Virus record (IMG/VR): IMGVR_UViG_3300049995_000120
Span: 1-64,000 of that record
DNA length: 64,000 nucleotides
Source of the DNA: a virus
Reading direction: 5' to 3' (one strand)
Shown here: positions 389 through 60,032 of the stretch, in pieces
Position numbering within the stretch: the stretch's first letter is position 1
How the letters are laid out: every line of letters begins with the position of its first letter
Program-made: the position numbers and the translations under genes
The notes under the pieces: model-generated
What the model was told of the DNA's origin: nothing
Seen by the model: only the letters and a program-made list of their open reading frames with translations
The model's database searches: none

Positions 389-615
389 CTTTTATATTAA
401 GAATTATACTAGGTGCGTGGTTTGTTTGTTTCTGTTTGGATTTGTTCCTGTTATTATATACATCAAAACGAATGTATGACTCTGGTGCAAACTGTCAACA
501 CCGGATTCTGTTATTGACACTTATGGTTATTGTGTCCCTTTCTGGCCCATTATTGTTAATCGGCCTGGAAATTTACGGTAAGAGGAATCCCACGTCCCTG
601 GATATTTTTGTCTAG
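385..615 (+). CDS. small two-TM membrane protein
   Basis: ATGA overlap with the previous gene; two hydrophobic helices. Confidence 0.6.
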   Translation: MTFILRIILGAWFVCFCLDLFLLLYTSKRMYDSGANCQHRILLLTLMVIVSLSGPLLLIGLEIYGKRNPTSLDIFV

Positions 616-680: not shown

Positions 681-709
681 TTGCAAAGTGGGAGGGTTTG
701 ATGTAGAAT
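681..709 (+). promoter_or_regulatory. sigma70-type promoter for the HNH leader
   Basis: TTGCAA(681-686)-17 nt-TAGAAT(704-709). Confidence 0.6.
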
Positions 710-715
710 GGGGGC

Positions 716-821
716 GCTGAAGGTTGGCGATTTTGTTTGTCAATAGAATACCGCTTTTGTGGAATCGCCAGATCTTCAGCAAACTGACAAACACCACAAA
801 GGCGGTACTCTATTTTAGGAG
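716..821 (+). ncRNA. structured leader RNA of HNH gene (hairpin with loop complementary to the SD-proximal region)
   Basis: 716-732 pairs with 763-780; loop 734-742 is complementary to 785-793; loop 742-762 is complementary to 794-814; AGGAG at 817-821. Confidence 0.7.
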
Positions 822-826
822 TACGA

Positions 827-1381
827 ATGAATAGAATTAAACGATGTTCAAAATGCAAAAAGATAAAATCCGTTTCTGAATTCCATAAAAACAAAGCAGA
901 AGTAGATGGGTTGTGTTATTGGTGTAAAGAGTGTAATAAAGCACATGTAAAAAAATATTATCAAAATAATTCCGAAAAAAGAAAATCATATTCGAGAGAT
1001 TATAGGCAAAAGAATCCGTCTGCCATTTATCAATATAATAAGCGCTATAAGAACAACCATCTTGAAACGACAAGAGCCTTCTTCAGGGTGTATACTCATA
1101 AACGACGCGCTTTAATGCAAAGTAATGGGGGAGAATTTTCGATGACGCAATTTCTTGCGCTTATTGAATTTTATTGCGCTTCTGGAAATTGTTTGGGTTG
1201 TGGTAAAAATTGCAAGTTTGATGCAGATCATGTTATACCCATAATATTGCGCGGAGAAAATACAATTTCTAATATACAGCCTCTTTGTCATAGCTGTAAT
1301 TCAAGAAAACATATTAAGATTATTGATTATCGACCTGATCATGGGGTTTATGCTCAATGGGTTGAGAAAAATATAAAATAA
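827..1381 (+). CDS. HNH endonuclease with N-terminal zinc finger
   Basis: CSKC...CKEC N-terminus; CLGC...DHVIP...N...LCHSCNSRK HNH motif; visibly AT-rich compared with flanks. Confidence 0.9.
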   Translation: MNRIKRCSKCKKIKSVSEFHKNKAEVDGLCYWCKECNKAHVKKYYQNNSEKRKSYSRDYRQKNPSAIYQYNKRYKNNHLETTRAFFRVYTHKRRALMQSNGGEFSMTQFLALIEFYCASGNCLGCGKNCKFDADHVIPIILRGENTISNIQPLCHSCNSRKHIKIIDYRPDHGVYAQWVEKNIK

Positions 1382-1409
1382 AGAGAGCGGTCTTAGACCG
1401 CTCTCAACT
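1378..1409 (-). terminator. intrinsic terminator after the major capsid gene
   Basis: GAGAGCGGTC/GACCGCTCTC hairpin followed by TTTATTT on the minus strand. Confidence 0.65.
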
Positions 1410-15648: not shown

Positions 15649-15686
15649 CAAAAATACCCTAAGTTTTAGAACTTAGGGTATTTTTG
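15649..15686. terminator. perfect 17-bp inverted repeat, bidirectional terminator or operator
   Basis: CAAAAATACCCTAAGTT-ttag-AACTTAGGGTATTTTTG. Confidence 0.65.
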
Positions 15687-51296: not shown

Positions 51297-51527
51297 TTAG
51301 TCGGGGGCAGGCACAAGAGGATCATGATAATTTAAAATTCTGGCAACATCATAAAGAGAAATTAAACCTTTTTCAGTTAGCAATTCAATAAGGTTTGCAA
51401 CTGCCAATTCAACGCTGATTCCATCCAGATCATTGGCGTCATGTTCATAAAAAATATGTACAATCCAAGTGGTTAACTCAACAGGATTGGCCTTGAAAGA
51501 AGAATAGGGTTTATATTGAATTTTCAT
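51297..51527 (-). CDS. hypothetical protein
   Basis: MKIQYKPY...; AAGGA SD lies inside the upstream hairpin. Confidence 0.45.
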   Translation of the reverse strand: MKIQYKPYSSFKANPVELTTWIVHIFYEHDANDLDGISVELAVANLIELLTEKGLISLYDVARILNYHDPLVPAPD

Positions 51528-51701
51528 ACAGCAAAAATCCTTATGGTATGTCTCGTGTCCTGTGGCCTTCCCGCGCCCTCCATGGGGAAAGGACATAAGA
51601 CATCCCATAAGGATTCTTGGGAGAGCGCCATTCTGGAAGCCACGCCAGGTAGGGTCAAATCACTACGCCATTATTGTATGATAATGGCATAGTTTTGTCA
51701 A
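51528..51701 (-). promoter_or_regulatory. promoter and long hairpin leader with an alternative pairing
   Basis: TTGACA-17-TACAAT; interrupted stem of about 30 bp at 51533-51618; loop elements complementary to 51620-51643. Confidence 0.55.
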
Positions 51702-56322: not shown

Positions 56323-56573
56323 TCCGCGATGGGGAGTCGTTTTGCCACATCAGGATGTAGCAGAACCAGCAGGGTGTACGCCAGAAGTTTTCCTTCCGCC
56401 GTTCCCATAAAATAATGCTTGAGGAGAACTCCCAGATCGGGTAGTTGCCCGAGCGACCAAGCATTCAAGGTGATGCGGCTCAATTTTGTTTCCCTGCTCA
56501 ACTGCAGGATAGCCCGGTCTCCTCGAAACTTGCTCATCGCTTCAATAACAATGGTATTTCGTATTTCAGTCAT
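56319..56573 (-). CDS. Cro/XRE-like HTH protein
   Basis: LSRETKLSRITLNAWSLGQLP; AGGAG SD. Confidence 0.55.
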   Translation of the reverse strand: MTEIRNTIVIEAMSKFRGDRAILQLSRETKLSRITLNAWSLGQLPDLGVLLKHYFMGTAEGKLLAYTLLVLLHPDVAKRLPIAE

Positions 56574-56595
56574 AAAAACTCCTTTCTAGTTCGTA

Positions 56596-56662
56596 GTTTA
56601 CCACCCTCCCCGTTATCTGTCAATGCCAATATCTTGACAGAATTACCCTTTCCCTTTATAAT
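56596..56662. promoter_or_regulatory. back-to-back divergent sigma70 promoters
   Basis: Plus strand TTGACA(56634)-17-TATAAT(56657); minus strand TTGACA-17-TAAACT. Confidence 0.7.
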
Positions 56663-56684
56663 GCTCCTAGAAAGGAGATTTTTT

Positions 56685-56915
56685 ATGATAGGTATGCTCT
56701 GGTTTGATAACGATCCCAAAAAAACCATCGCCGTCAAGATACGTGGGGCGATTGAATATTACAAAGAGAAATACGGCGCAACGCCTACGGTTTGTTACAT
56801 GAACCCCGCCATGCTCCGCCAAGAACCCATCTCAAAGTCTGACGTGGGCGTGGATCTCATAACCAACAAATCATTACTTTATAACCATTTCCTGATAGGA
56901 GTTTCCAATGTGTAG
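56685..56915 (+). CDS. conserved small hypothetical protein
   Basis: AAGGAG SD; MIGMLWFDND...YY.EKYG..P..C. Confidence 0.65.
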   Translation: MIGMLWFDNDPKKTIAVKIRGAIEYYKEKYGATPTVCYMNPAMLRQEPISKSDVGVDLITNKSLLYNHFLIGVSNV

Positions 56916-57961: not shown

Positions 57962-58849
57962 ATGAACGACACCCTGAAGTTTTGGGTAAAGATTTTTGGT
58001 TTCATTTTTGCTGCCTTGGTCATCGCCTATTCATCGGTGCTGACCTATCTCATGGCCGGACGCTTGGTGCCAGGAAATTTCATCTTGCAGTTAGCTACCG
58101 TCCTGCTCTTTGACGGTGGTGCGCTAATCTGGTTTTTCCAATTCGTCTGCCATGCCAAAGGAACGGCGCAGTGGGGCTTCGCCGGCTTGGGTTTTGTTGT
58201 GGGCTTACTTGGCGCGGTAGTAATGGCTGCCGGCGAACTGATCATGTCTCAAAATCTGGTGGTATTCAGTGATATGTCTCGCTTGGGTTGGCTTTTAATT
58301 GGTACGGTGGTGGTAGCGCTTATCACCCACATCACCCTCACTTATCTGTTCCACATCAGCGATCCGGCCCTCATGAACTCCATTGAAAACGCTCAGGCTG
58401 TTGCTAAAATCGTGCGCGGCGCTTCCATCGACGCCCACGCTGAACTTGATCGCAAACAGCACGAATTGGGGCGCGGCATAGCTGACTCCATTTATGCCCA
58501 GGCGATTCAACAGATCGAAACGGTCACAGCCTTCCACATCCGCAACAAACGCTTAGAAAAGGGTAAAACCGATGAGTTTCTGCACGGTAATGTTCTGTCT
58601 GGTGTAGCGAGGGATGTTCCTTTGATGCCCATGACTACCACTCCAGGCGGTAATGGGCGCAAGCAGATTTACAGTCACAAACCCGCCAATGCCAAACGTG
58701 GCCTCTTCAAGCGCGGCGCACCCAAGCGCGGCCCTGCGGCTTTTAACGCCAGCGCGGCTCCCACTGTGATCGTCACCGCCCCTCCCGGTGTGCAGGAGGC
58801 GCACCAACCTCGCCCCCCGTCCCCAACGAGTTTCGACAACAAGCAGTAA
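57962..58849 (+). CDS. four-TM membrane protein with cytoplasmic tail
   Basis: AAGGAGG SD; four hydrophobic helices then a coiled and Pro-rich tail. Confidence 0.75.
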   Translation: MNDTLKFWVKIFGFIFAALVIAYSSVLTYLMAGRLVPGNFILQLATVLLFDGGALIWFFQFVCHAKGTAQWGFAGLGFVVGLLGAVVMAAGELIMSQNLVVFSDMSRLGWLLIGTVVVALITHITLTYLFHISDPALMNSIENAQAVAKIVRGASIDAHAELDRKQHELGRGIADSIYAQAIQQIETVTAFHIRNKRLEKGKTDEFLHGNVLSGVARDVPLMPMTTTPGGNGRKQIYSHKPANAKRGLFKRGAPKRGPAAFNASAAPTVIVTAPPGVQEAHQPRPPSPTSFDNKQ

Positions 58850-58971
58850 AAGGATTAAGAATCTGCCGCGTATGTGGTGAAGAGTTTGAAGGCGCGCGCA
58901 ACGCCCGTTATTGTTCTTGGAAATGCAAACAAAGAGCATATAGATTCCGCAAACTAACTGTGGTAAAATAG
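58813..58971 (+). CDS. -1-frame zinc-finger extension (frameshift product or gene remnant)
   Basis: RICRVCGEEFEGARNARYCSWKCKQRAYRFRK in a frame with no start codon ahead of it. Confidence 0.5.
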   Translation, partial: PPVPNEFRQQAVKGLRICRVCGEEFEGARNARYCSWKCKQRAYRFRKLTVVK

Positions 58972-58975
58972 TTTT

Positions 58976-59085
58976 GTCTAGGAATGAGCGGAATTTTAAT
59001 TTGCTTATATAGAGCCGTTACTTTGTTAATTCCGCTGTTCCTAGACCCAACAGCAAAACAAAGTAGCGGCTTTATATTTTGGAGG
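58976..59085 (+). ncRNA. structured leader RNA of HNH gene (same topology as 716-821)
   Basis: TGgTAAAAT at 58961-58969; 58976-58995 pairs with 59028-59046; 59000-59005 with 59052-59057; 59007-59026 with 59058-59077; GGAGG at 59081. Confidence 0.7.
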
Positions 59086-59089
59086 CTAT

Positions 59090-59578
59090 ATGCAAATCAT
59101 ATATTCAATTAGCGGGGATGAGATTTTCGTGGACGACGATGATTATCCACTATTGAATCGCCATAGATGGAGTGTAACTCGTGAAGGATATGTAATAGGA
59201 CAGATTGCAGATCGTTCTATTACGATGCATCTGCTAATAATGGGGAAAAGAAAAGGACATGAGGTTGATCATATTAATGGCGTAGGATGTGATAACAGAA
59301 AATGCAATTTGCGGTTTTGTACTCATTCTGAAAATATGCGAAATAGTATTTCTCAGATATTCTTTTTCTGGAGAAGAACACCAAAAAAGCCTTCACGAGC
59401 GCGTTCATTACCACCTATACATTATGGCCCTCAAAAGATTGTTCCCTTTCGTTGTAAACAATGTGGTCATTTATTTCAAGGAAAACCCAACAGCAGATAT
59501 TGTTCTGCTGCTTGCAAACAAAAACATTATCGTTTCCGTAAACGCATACAACACAACATCGTAGACATTTCTCCGTGA
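59090..59578 (+). CDS. HNH endonuclease with C-terminal zinc finger
   Basis: MHLLIM..VDHING..DNRKCNLR..SEN; CKQC...YCSAAC. Confidence 0.85.
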   Translation: MQIIYSISGDEIFVDDDDYPLLNRHRWSVTREGYVIGQIADRSITMHLLIMGKRKGHEVDHINGVGCDNRKCNLRFCTHSENMRNSISQIFFFWRRTPKKPSRARSLPPIHYGPQKIVPFRCKQCGHLFQGKPNSRYCSAACKQKHYRFRKRIQHNIVDISP

Positions 59579-59663
59579 TCGTAGACAAAATCGTAACAAT
59601 TTGTCTAGCGCGGCGCTCAATCTTTTATTCATGCCAGCGCGGCGCAAGATAAATTGTATGCTT

Positions 59664-60032
59664 TTACAGGTCTGCAACCAAGCCAAACTCGACCTCGACC
59701 CCTGCGCGGCCTTGGCGCTTTTCTCCCCCAAGATCTCTGGTGATATAGCGATCATCCACAAACACCACGCCTTTGGCAGCATCACATAGCGCTTTTAGCA
59801 GGTTATCAATATCGCACTGGTAGAGCGGTCCCGTGCGCACTACCAGCCAGCGTACAAAAAGCGGTACACGCGGCGGGAGCATTGGCCAGTCGTTTTGTAG
59901 CATCTGTGCCTTGTAGCCCCAAGCGAGAGCGGTCTGGTTCTGGATATACTTTTGCGCCTTGGGTATCCACAGGCCTCTCGTAGTCATGCGGGTATAGGGA
60001 ATCAACTGAAAGTCTTCAAACACGAATTTCAT
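59664..60032 (-). CDS. rusA: RusA-like Holliday junction resolvase
   Basis: DIDNLLKALCDA..GVVFVDDRYI. Confidence 0.85.
   Translation of the reverse strand: MKFVFEDFQLIPYTRMTTRGLWIPKAQKYIQNQTALAWGYKAQMLQNDWPMLPPRVPLFVRWLVVRTGPLYQCDIDNLLKALCDAAKGVVFVDDRYITRDLGGEKRQGRAGVEVEFGLVADL

What the first reader, a model, noticed from the sequence alone, without database searches (positions are those of the whole stretch)
58959..59578. Second HNH cassette with the same leader topology and unrelated sequence
Seen: extended -10 TGgTAAAAT; stem GTCTAGGAATGAGCGGAATT / AATTCCGCTGTTCCTAGAC around a 32-nt loop. Element a' TTTGCT pairs with AGCAAA 5 nt after the stem. Element b' ATATAGAGCCGTTACTTTGT pairs over 20 nt (two GU) with ACAAAGTAGCGGCTTTATAT, followed by TTT-GGAGG and the ATG. 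Stem length, internal bulge, loop size, element order and distance to the SD all match 716-821, yet this HNH is of a different subtype. The GU-tolerant differences argue for RNA-level pairing. Different b sequences would make the two cassettes mutually orthogonal. The third HNH (55849), embedded in an operon, has no such leader.
Basis: partly seen in the sequence, partly recalled or inferred. Interest (0 to 1): 0.85.

Follow-up and report, generated by a model that had tools for sequence, protein, structure and literature searches.

The report
Two-helix leader RNA before phage nucleases
Two unrelated selfish DNA-cutting-enzyme (HNH) genes in an uncultured sediment phage each sit behind their own promoter and a roughly 110-base leader built to one unusual plan, two 20-base-pair helices that cross each other, which most likely limits how much nuclease is made.

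Summary
Leader 2 has an extended -10 promoter, a 19-bp stem P1 around a 32-nt loop, and a 21-bp pairing P2 between that loop and the stretch ending 3 nt before the SD. Leader 1 (716-826) repeats this plan with the same spacings. Its letters differ: 24 of 38 pair positions change on both sides and still pair.

In 80.5 kb these are the only two places with two crossing compact helices both at or below -28 kcal/mol. None was found among 159 HNH loci from other phages. Neither leader matches any Rfam family, int-alpA included.

The nucleases belong to different families (PF13392, PF01844). Each sits in an AT-rich promoter-leader-gene-hairpin unit.

P1 and P2 cannot both form fully and have similar predicted stability. 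In leader 1, P1 hides the SD and P2 frees it. In leader 2 no such effect is predicted.

My best reading (about 0.5) is a cis-acting RNA element that restrains nuclease expression. Processing, attenuation and DNA-level roles remain open.

No relatives of this phage and no RNA data were found. This scan has already reported other, differently built leader RNAs before homing-endonuclease genes on other DNA, so I rate this a new variant of a known kind.

The parts
58959..58969 (+). Extended -10 promoter TGTGGTAAAAT of cassette 2 (-10 hexamer at 58964-58969, 6 nt before P1)
   Evidence: Read. TGTGGTAAAAT occurs 3 times on this strand against about 0.02 expected. One copy heads the tmRNA cluster at genome position 77042. 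A TGTGGTATAAT variant lies near 15685.
58976..58995 (+). P1 5' arm, leader 2
   Evidence: The duplex with 59028-59046 scores -28.5 kcal/mol with 19 pairs. The isolated hairpin scores -23.6.
59000..59005 (+). a' (TTTGCT) in the P1 loop
   Evidence: Pairs with 59052-59057; 19 of 2000 shuffles do as well.
59007..59027 (+). b', the 3' two-thirds of the P1 loop; it abuts the P1 3' arm with 0 nt between
   Evidence: 21-bp helix with 59057-59077, 2 G-U, no mismatch. Duplex -30.0 kcal/mol.
59028..59046 (+). P1 3' arm, leader 2
59052..59057 (+). a (AGCAAA), in the linker between P1 and b
59057..59077 (+). b, the partner of b'; it ends 3 nt before the SD and is followed by a U-rich run
59081..59085 (+). 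Shine-Dalgarno GGAGG, 4 nt before the ATG
   Evidence: Read.
59090..59578 (+). HNH2, 162 aa: an HNH_3 nuclease core plus a C-terminal CxxC...YCSxxCKQxxYRFRK zinc ribbon where its relatives carry an AP2 domain
   Evidence: PF13392 at E = 2e-8 and phrog_99 at 7e-15. The invariant motif residues are kept. GenBank phage relatives are annotated as HNH homing endonuclease or AP2.
59596..59657 (.). 20-bp hairpin between the convergent HNH2 and rusA genes; probable two-way terminator and 3' end of cassette 2
   Evidence: RusA is PF05866 on the minus strand at 59664-60032.
58936..58948 (+). Candidate anti-RBS arm upstream of the cassette's own promoter, complementary to the SD-AUG stretch 59081-59093. 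It would exist only on read-through transcripts.
   Evidence: Duplex -16.5 kcal/mol; 18 of 300 shuffles do as well, so this is borderline.
681..709 (+). Promoter of cassette 1, TTGCAA-17-TAGAAT, with the -10 lying 6 nt before P1
716..780 (+). P1 of leader 1 (arms 716-732 and 763-780; 9 bp, a bulged G, 8 bp; 30-nt loop)
   Evidence: Duplex -28.1 kcal/mol; isolated hairpin -21.1.
734..742 (+). a' of leader 1 (TGTTTGTCA); pairs with a at 785-793 (TGACAAACA)
   Evidence: -11.0 kcal/mol; 1 of 2000 shuffles does as well.
742..814 (+). b':b helix of leader 1 (arms 742-762 and 794-814; 20 pairs, 1 G-U, 1 A-C mismatch)
   Evidence: Duplex -29.3 kcal/mol; isolated hairpin -25.6.
805..825 (+). Alternative 7-bp hairpin in leader 1 that pairs the 3' half of b with the SD (AGGAG at 818-822)
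   Evidence: It is present in the minimum-energy fold. The SD is unpaired 0.01-0.02 of the time with P1 forced and 0.79-0.95 with P2 forced. On its own it is not significant: 69 of 300 shuffles do as well.
827..1381 (+). HNH1, 184 aa: a Cys-rich N-terminal part plus a classical HNH motif
   Evidence: PF01844 at 1e-8, PF14279, and phrog_1035 at 4e-28. Conserved residues are kept.
1383..1405 (.). GC-rich hairpin between the convergent HNH1 and the 489-aa gene; 3' end of cassette 1
58973..58981 (+). TTTGTCTAG. Its other two copies in the genome lie at 607-615 and 59600-59608, so all three are next to the cassettes.
   Evidence: CTAG is 3.5-fold under-represented in this genome, 88 found against 314 expected. 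Unexplained.

Best explanation
Each of the two HNH genes is a self-contained, AT-rich expression cassette of foreign origin: promoter, structured 5' leader, SD, free-standing homing-type nuclease gene, then a hairpin at the 3' end.

The leader acts in cis as RNA. It holds two helices of about 20 bp. P1 starts at or next to the predicted +1. P2 (b':b) joins the loop of P1 to the 21 nt just before the SD. The two share no bases, but they cannot both be complete, because a closed 30-nt loop cannot wind two helical turns around a tethered strand.

P1 is transcribed and folds first. P2 is thermodynamically equal or better once b has been made. Which state a transcript adopts sets how its ribosome-binding region is presented and how stable it is, and so keeps nuclease synthesis low or delayed.

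Shown here: the helices, their statistical rarity, the shared architecture with compensated letters, the near-equal predicted energies, and the nuclease family assignments.

Inferred: that the helices act in RNA, that the transcription start lies at the foot of P1, that the two states exclude each other, and that the regulated output is translation. The translation link is predicted clearly only for leader 1, where P1 leaves the 3' half of b free to hide the SD and P2 frees the SD.
For: - Anatomy and significance.
- Same spacings in both copies, with 24 of 38 pair positions changed on both sides and still paired.
- 6 G-U pairs against 1 A-C mismatch on the sense strand (counted from the pair table printed and the sequence). 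The sense strand of leader 2 folds about 9 kcal/mol better than the antisense strand.
- Near-equal energies for the two states: leader 1 -39.7 against -36.7, up to -43.0 against -44.6; leader 2 -37.2 against -40.7.
- On the growing chain, P1 is the best fold at lengths 60-66 nt and P2 takes over at 92-94 nt. The barrier between the states is 33-35 kcal/mol in a model without pseudoknots.
- Leader 1: SD unpaired 0.01-0.02 under P1 and 0.79-0.95 under P2.
- The promoter assignment for leader 2 is backed by recurrence of TGTGGTAAAAT at two other sites in the genome, one heading the tmRNA cluster.
- Precedent: stable RNA structures at or just upstream of the RBS control I-TevI, I-TevII, I-TevIII, segB and Aeh1 mobE. 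Aeromonas phage 25 seg43(25) has a very stable hairpin that ends just before a free RBS (PMC2988022).
Against: - There are only two copies, both in one genome. No relatives were found that would allow a real covariation test.
- The sequence is identical in four other sediment metagenome runs, so there is no natural variation to read.
- In leader 2 the predicted SD accessibility is about the same in both states, 0.33-0.45.
- The SD-hiding pairings are not significant on their own: 69 of 300 shuffles for leader 1 and 18 of 300 for the upstream arm of leader 2.
- The significant a':a pairing has no role in this model.
- No trigger for a switch is known.
- The antisense fold of leader 1 P2 is more stable than the sense fold, so a DNA-level or antisense role is not excluded.
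Confidence: 0.5

Rival explanations
1. The leader is a processing and stability element. P1 is a protective 5'-terminal hairpin. The near-perfect 21-bp P2 is an RNase III-type substrate whose cleavage detaches the leader and sets the 5' end, and so the lifetime, of the nuclease mRNA. This would resemble the RNase III sites in T7 early mRNA and in the lambda N leader (established knowledge, recalled from memory).
For: Both helices are about two helical turns long, the size class that RNase III cuts. P1 carries a central bulge or internal loop, as phage RNase III sites do. P1 begins 6 nt after the -10, at the predicted +1. In leader 2 the SD accessibility does not depend on the state, which fits a control that does not work through SD masking.
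Against: The host and its RNases are unknown. There are no RNA data. This model does not explain why P1 and P2 are interleaved, nor why a':a exists.
Confidence: 0.17
2. The leader is a transcription attenuator. P2, with its A-rich 5' foot and U-rich 3' tail (UUUAUAUUUU in leader 2, CUCUAUUUU in leader 1), would act as a weak intrinsic terminator just before the SD. P1 would act as the anti-terminator by blocking completion of P2. Termination would yield a leader RNA of about 100 nt and no nuclease mRNA.
For: In both leaders the 3' arm of P2 runs into a U-rich tract placed before the SD, and the 5' arm begins A-rich. P1 forms first on the growing chain.
Against: The consensus terminator scan does not call P2. 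The foot of P2 is A-U rich rather than G-C rich. Its loop is 29-31 nt, which is unlike known intrinsic terminators.
Confidence: 0.1
3. The repeats act in DNA. They could be boundary or recombination sequences of the mobile cassettes, or operators bound by the nuclease or a phage regulator. This would resemble the promoter-stem-loop (PeSL) cassettes of T4-type phages, or the I-TevI operator that overlaps its own promoter.
For: All three copies of TTTGTCTAG in the genome lie next to the cassettes, and two of them flank leader 2 plus HNH2, in a genome where CTAG is avoided. The cassettes are AT-rich islands. The antisense fold of leader 1 P2 is at least as stable as the sense fold. For the precedents see PMC2839356 and PMC4122927 (found, abstracts only), and PMC2988022.
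Against: G-T pairs outnumber A-C mismatches 6 to 1 on the sense strand. The two copies share no sequence that one protein or recombinase could recognise. The position between +1 and the SD, and the identical distance to the ATG, fit an mRNA role. No recombinase or transposase gene is attached to either cassette.
Confidence: 0.1
4. P1, a':a and part of b':b form one compact three-helix (ABCABC) pseudoknot, which a protein recognises. The protein could be the nuclease itself, acting as an autogenous translational repressor as T4 gp32 does at its leader pseudoknot.
For: All three pairings are individually non-random. b' abuts the 3' arm of P1 with 0 nt between in both leaders, which is the geometry needed for coaxial stacking. 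The linker lengths of 11-13 nt are about what is needed to span the helices (inference).
Against: The full-length helices cannot coexist, by geometry and topology (inference). No protein-binding evidence exists. The two nucleases are unrelated, so each would need its own way of recognising its leader.
Confidence: 0.08

Closest known systems
RBS-sequestering RNA hairpins of T-even phage homing-endonuclease genes (I-TevI, I-TevII, I-TevIII, segB; mobE of phage Aeh1), reviewed in PMC2988022
   Same: A stable RNA structure lies directly in front of a phage homing-endonuclease gene, combined with a dedicated promoter. Its presumed purpose is to restrain or delay nuclease synthesis. Leader 2 also has a candidate anti-RBS arm upstream of its own promoter, the arrangement used by I-TevI.
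   Different: In the known cases one hairpin contains the SD, and the promoter lies inside or after its 5' arm. Here the promoter precedes two interleaved 20-bp helices, and the large helices stop 3 nt short of the SD. There is no sequence or Rfam relationship.
seg43(25) of Aeromonas phage 25: a very stable hairpin immediately upstream of a free RBS (PMC2988022)
   Same: A long, stable helix whose base ends just before an unsequestered SD of a free-standing homing-endonuclease gene. Its function is likewise untested.
   Different: It is described as a single hairpin. No second, crossing helix is reported.
Other leader RNAs before phage homing-endonuclease genes reported by this scan on other DNA, and the Rfam int-alpA motif (RF02996)
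   Same: Structured leaders that travel with nuclease genes of different families within one phage, and that are read as translation locks (AI notes that I did not check).
   Different: Those leaders use a hairpin loop that pairs with the RBS itself. Here the loop pairs with the 21 nt upstream of the SD. int-alpA gives no match anywhere in this genome, even at E up to 10.
hok-type toxin mRNAs with sequential, mutually exclusive foldings (established knowledge, recalled from memory)
   Same: A toxic gene product is kept untranslated by a structure that forms first during transcription and must be rearranged or processed before translation can start.
   Different: The hok system relies on long-range 5'-3' pairing, 3' trimming and an antisense RNA. 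None of these is seen here.
PeSL promoter-stem-loop cassettes of T4-type phages (PMC2839356, PMC4122927)
   Same: A promoter plus stem-loop modules at the borders of accessory gene cassettes in phage genomes.
   Different: PeSLs are conserved in sequence between copies and act through DNA homology. The two leaders here share architecture but not sequence.

Membership tests
T-even type RBS-sequestering hairpin of homing-endonuclease genes | The stable helix contains the SD and/or the start codon | tested here: not met
   P2 ends at 59077 in leader 2 and at 814 in leader 1, which is 3 nt before the SD in both cases. Only leader 1 has an extra 7-bp SD hairpin, and it is not significant alone (69 of 300 shuffles).
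T-even type RBS-sequestering hairpin of homing-endonuclease genes | A dedicated promoter placed so that its own transcripts lack the inhibitory 5' arm | tested here: inconclusive
   Leader 2: the arm at 58936-58948 lies upstream of the -10 and pairs with the SD-AUG stretch at -16.5 kcal/mol, but 18 of 300 shuffles do as well. Leader 1: no such arm (286 of 300 shuffles do as well).
Rfam int-alpA (RF02996) and every other Rfam 15 family | Covariance-model match at or above the gathering score | tested here: not met
   No match at gathering score in the window or in the rest of the genome except tmRNA. Only noise hits at E up to 10 over both leaders. RF02996 gives no match at E up to 10.
H-type or three-helix RNA pseudoknot (all helices present at once) | The crossing helices coexist in one molecule | not testable with these tools
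   The folding tools used exclude pseudoknots. From helix lengths (19, 6-9 and 21 bp) and linkers (0, 4-5 and 11-13 nt), I infer that the full helices cannot coexist.
Intrinsic terminator / attenuator | A G+C-rich stem with a short loop, directly followed by a U-tract | tested here: not met
   The consensus scan does not call P2 in either cassette. A U-rich tract is present, but the foot of the stem is A-U rich and the loop is 29-31 nt.
Free-standing homing endonuclease gene | An intact nuclease motif of a homing-endonuclease family | tested here: met
   PF13392 and PF01844/PF14279 score above their cut-offs. Invariant motif residues are kept. Relatives are annotated as homing endonucleases.
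Free-standing homing endonuclease gene | Presence/absence polymorphism between related genomes (mobility) | tested here: inconclusive
   No related phage was found. No contig in four other runs skips the cassette.
PeSL mobile regulatory cassette | Sequence conservation between copies, allowing homologous recombination | tested here: not met
   The b strands share 5 of 21 bases in register, which is chance level. Overall MAFFT identity is about 45%.
RNase III processing site | Double-stranded RNA of about two helical turns | tested here: met
   P1 has 19 pairs and P2 has 20-21 pairs. Cleavage itself cannot be tested here.

The most novel reading that the evidence does not exclude
The leader would be a new class of portable RNA lock built from three mutually crossing pairings (P1, a':a, b':b; ABCABC order) that are topologically frustrated. 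The first-formed hairpin physically prevents the more stable helix from completing, which would give a one-way kinetic gate for a toxic nuclease mRNA. Because only complementarity matters and not sequence, each cassette would carry a private, mutually orthogonal version, and the design could move between unrelated nuclease families.
Probability: 0.2. Interest if true: 0.75.

Novelty: new variant of a known kind. Interest (0 to 1): 0.55.

Why it matters
Homing endonucleases are selfish and potentially harmful to the phage that carries them. How they are kept in check is known in detail only for a few T4-family genes. This leader would add a second design principle: two long helices that exclude each other by topology rather than by competing for the same bases. 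It would also show that such leaders are modular, since one plan serves two unrelated nuclease families with non-cross-reacting sequences. If it works as a kinetic gate, it would be of interest as a compact, programmable and orthogonal part for controlling toxic genes. Together with the other leader families that this scan has reported, it supports the view that structured 5' leaders are a general companion of phage homing-endonuclease genes.

Tried and rejected
- Rfam at gathering score and at E up to 10 over both leaders gave only noise. int-alpA is absent.
- GenBank phages at blastn sensitivity gave no match for either cassette.
- Searches of IMG/VR and JGI metagenomes with HNH2, HNH1, the upstream 295-aa gene and RusA found only distant relatives and no kin phage.
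- A degenerate pattern built from what the two b-SD regions share found nothing in IMG/VR.
- A topology scan of 80 HNH_3 loci and 79 HNH1-like loci from other phages found only weaker crossings in G+C-rich coding DNA. I inspected the best candidates and rejected them: L040 and L051, and L142 and L127 (z = -1.9 and -1.1).
- Sequencing runs: no RNA holder was listed. Contigs from four other freshwater-sediment runs are identical, with no variant and no joint across the cassette.
- In one of those runs the contig pieces covering the cassette have higher word depth than the flanks, and contigs break near 58948-58976 and near 59100. By the tool's own rules this cannot be used as evidence of copy number or mobility.
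- A possible third leader at 51532-51650 (minus strand) is a long SD-containing hairpin with only a weak crossing helix (z = -2.7). I do not count it as a member.
- The inverted repeat at 56569-56689 is two divergent RBS modules.
- A leader peptide was considered. Open frames of 42 and 36 codons start at base 9 of P1 in both leaders and stop 23 and 8 nt after the HNH start codon. I judge this unlikely, because there is no usable SD and the start codon lies inside P1.
- I did not build a covariance model. With two unalignable sequences it would only describe 'any long hairpin'.

Full report
**Source.** The window is the first 64 kb of an 80.5-kb IMG/VR virus record. The same sequence occurs in freshwater-sediment metagenomes. 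The phage is very divergent. Most large proteins have no Pfam family, and no kin phage was found in GenBank phages, IMG/VR or JGI metagenomes.

On the + strand:
- TGTGGTAAAAT at 58959-58969.
- P1 arms at 58976-58995 and 59028-59046: 9 bp, two G-U pairs plus one bulged A, then 8 bp, around a 32-nt loop.
- a' at 59000-59005 and b' at 59007-59027 inside that loop.
- A 5-nt linker, then a at 59052-59057 and b at 59057-59077.
- TTT, GGAGG at 59081-59085, and ATG at 59090.

b':b is 21 bp with two G-U pairs and no mismatch.

Leader 1 has the same order of parts:
- Promoter TTGCAA-17-TAGAAT at 681-709.
- P1 arms at 716-732 and 763-780.
- a' at 734-742 and b' at 742-762.
- a at 785-793 and b at 794-814.
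- AGGAG at 818-822 and ATG at 827.

Three spacings are identical in the two leaders. There are 6 nt from the -10 to P1, 0 nt between b' and the 3' arm of P1, and 12 nt from b to the ATG. The length from P1 to the ATG is 111 against 114 nt.

**It is not chance.**
- Both leaders fold better than all 200 shuffles, with z = -4.4 and -3.6.
- The genome has five ungapped helices of 19 bp or more within 120 nt, against none in ten Markov shuffles. Two of the five are the b':b helices.
- I scanned both strands of the genome with RNAduplex for pairs of compact helices in which the second starts in the loop of the first and ends beyond it. Only these two loci have both helices at or below -28 kcal/mol.
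- The next best cases are weaker and lie in G+C-rich coding DNA, or are of another kind.
- The short a':a pairing is also non-random: 1 of 2000 shuffles for leader 1 and 19 of 2000 for leader 2.
- So three pairings, all crossing one another, recur in both leaders.

**The two copies share a plan, not letters.**
- In register the b strands share 5 of 21 bases.
- Of 38 aligned pair positions, 24 differ on both sides with pairing kept, 2 differ on one side, 11 are identical and 1 is unpaired in one copy.
- A one-base offset raises b-strand identity to about 11 of 20 by my manual alignment, which is not convincing.
- Whether the copies descend from one ancestor or converged, pairing has been selected.
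- Predicted cognate loop-to-tail duplexes are -29 kcal/mol, against -12 and -15 for the crossed combinations.

**What the genes are.**
- HNH2 (59090-59578) is an HNH_3 protein (PF13392).
- Its relatives are mostly AP2-bearing homing endonucleases of phages.
- Instead of AP2 it ends in a zinc ribbon. That ribbon is 60% identical (E = 1e-12) to a ribbon encoded just upstream, in the -1 frame at the end of gene 57962-58849.
- HNH1 (827-1381) is a classical HNH (PF01844, phrog_1035) with a Cys-rich N-terminal part.
- Both keep the invariant motif residues.
- Both lie in AT-rich DNA, convergent with their neighbours, and end at a hairpin (1383-1405 and 59596-59657).
- Each is therefore a self-contained promoter-leader-gene-terminator unit.
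- The promoter of leader 2 belongs to a recurrent phage promoter type. TGTGGTAAAAT also occurs at 67435 and at 77042, where it heads the tmRNA cluster, and TGTGGTATAAT occurs near 15685.

**How the leader may work.**
- P1 and P2 share no bases, but b' lies in the loop closed by P1.
- Winding two helical turns around a strand of a closed 30-nt loop requires threading. I therefore infer that full P1 and full P2 exclude each other, and that a':a is incompatible with either one.
- The isolated hairpins score -21.1 and -25.6 kcal/mol in leader 1, and -23.6 and -26.0 in leader 2.
- Ensembles with P1 forced or P2 forced differ by only 1-5 kcal/mol.
- On the growing chain P1 is the best fold from 60-66 nt, and P2 takes over at 92-94 nt. 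In leader 1, P1 returns at 109 nt, once the 3' half of b can pair with the SD.
- The barrier between the states is 33-35 kcal/mol in a model without pseudoknots.
- In leader 1 the consequence is clear: the SD is unpaired 0.01-0.02 of the time under P1 and 0.79-0.95 under P2.
- In leader 2 it is 0.33-0.45 in both states.
- Leader 2 instead has a 13-nt stretch upstream of its own promoter (58936-58948) that is complementary to the SD-AUG region. That is the I-TevI arrangement, but the match is only borderline: 18 of 300 shuffles do as well.
- The sense strand carries 6 G-U pairs against 1 A-C mismatch.
- The sense fold is more stable than the antisense fold for three of the four helices. This favours RNA but does not prove it.

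**Comparison with what is known.**
- Phage homing-endonuclease genes are the classical case of control by RNA structure at the RBS: I-TevI, I-TevII, I-TevIII, segB and Aeh1 mobE.
- One case, seg43(25) of Aeromonas phage 25, has a very stable hairpin that stops just before a free RBS. Its function is unknown (PMC2988022). P2 resembles that case.
- Earlier notes of this scan describe several other leader RNAs before homing-endonuclease genes on other phages, including members of Rfam int-alpA.
- Those leaders use a loop that pairs with the RBS itself, and int-alpA is absent here.
- Among 159 HNH loci of the same two protein families from other phages, none has a comparable leader.
- So the theme is known, while this architecture matches no Rfam family, none of those 159 loci and nothing in the one review I read (PMC2988022). 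I have seen it in one genome only.

**What stays open.**
- Which step is regulated: translation, decay or processing, or termination.
- The role of a':a.
- Whether TTTGTCTAG marks cassette borders or a protein-binding site. All three copies in the genome lie beside the cassettes, in a genome that avoids CTAG.
- Whether the cassettes are still mobile.

Noticed in passing
window 58747-58968 (+), against 59453-59545: The -1 frame at the end of gene 57962-58849 encodes a CxxC...YCSxxCKQxxYRFRK zinc ribbon with no start codon of its own. It is 60% identical in protein (E = 1e-12), and about 62% identical in DNA, to the C-terminus of HNH2. The promoter of leader 2 overlaps its last codons. It could be a frameshifted extension of the upstream gene, a remnant of an older nuclease gene, or the source of the HNH2 tail.
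   Followed up: partly
window 607-615, 58973-58981, 59600-59608: TTTGTCTAG occurs three times in the 80.5-kb genome, against about 0.3 expected per strand. All three copies lie next to the two cassettes, and two of them flank leader 2 plus HNH2 exactly 627 nt apart. CTAG itself is 3.5-fold under-represented in the genome. This is unexplained.
   Followed up: partly
window 51525-51699 (-): A promoter-like TTGACA-17-TACAAT is followed by a leader with a 20-22-bp helix (arms 51598-51619 and 51532-51553). Its 3' arm contains the AAGGA before the ATG at 51527 of a 76-aa ORF with no known family. A weaker crossing helix is also present. The fold z-score is only -2.7.
   Followed up: partly
window 56569-56692: Two divergent genes start with nearly the same RBS module, CTAGAAAGGAG(A)TTTTT(T)ATG, on opposite strands. 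This reads as an 18-20-bp inverted repeat but is not an RNA fold (z = -1.0).
   Followed up: yes
L005 13033-14230 (genome 77033-78230): The same TGTGGTAAAAT promoter heads a phage tmRNA (Rfam RF00023, 55.8 bits) with a 33-residue tag. It is followed by about 470 nt of unassigned, apparently structured RNA and then a fourth small HNH gene that has no two-helix leader.
   Followed up: partly
window 59045-59055 and 59485-59495: The 11-mer ACCCAACAGCA (end of P1, the linker and the start of a) recurs exactly inside the HNH2 coding region, against about 0.09 expected for the region. Its significance is unknown.
   Followed up: no
window 58984-59112 and 724-834 (+): In both leaders a start codon (ATG in leader 2, TTG in leader 1) sits at bases 9-11 of P1. 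It opens a frame of 42 or 36 codons that runs through the whole leader and stops 23 or 8 nt after the HNH start codon. A coupling uORF cannot be excluded, but there is no usable SD.
   Followed up: no
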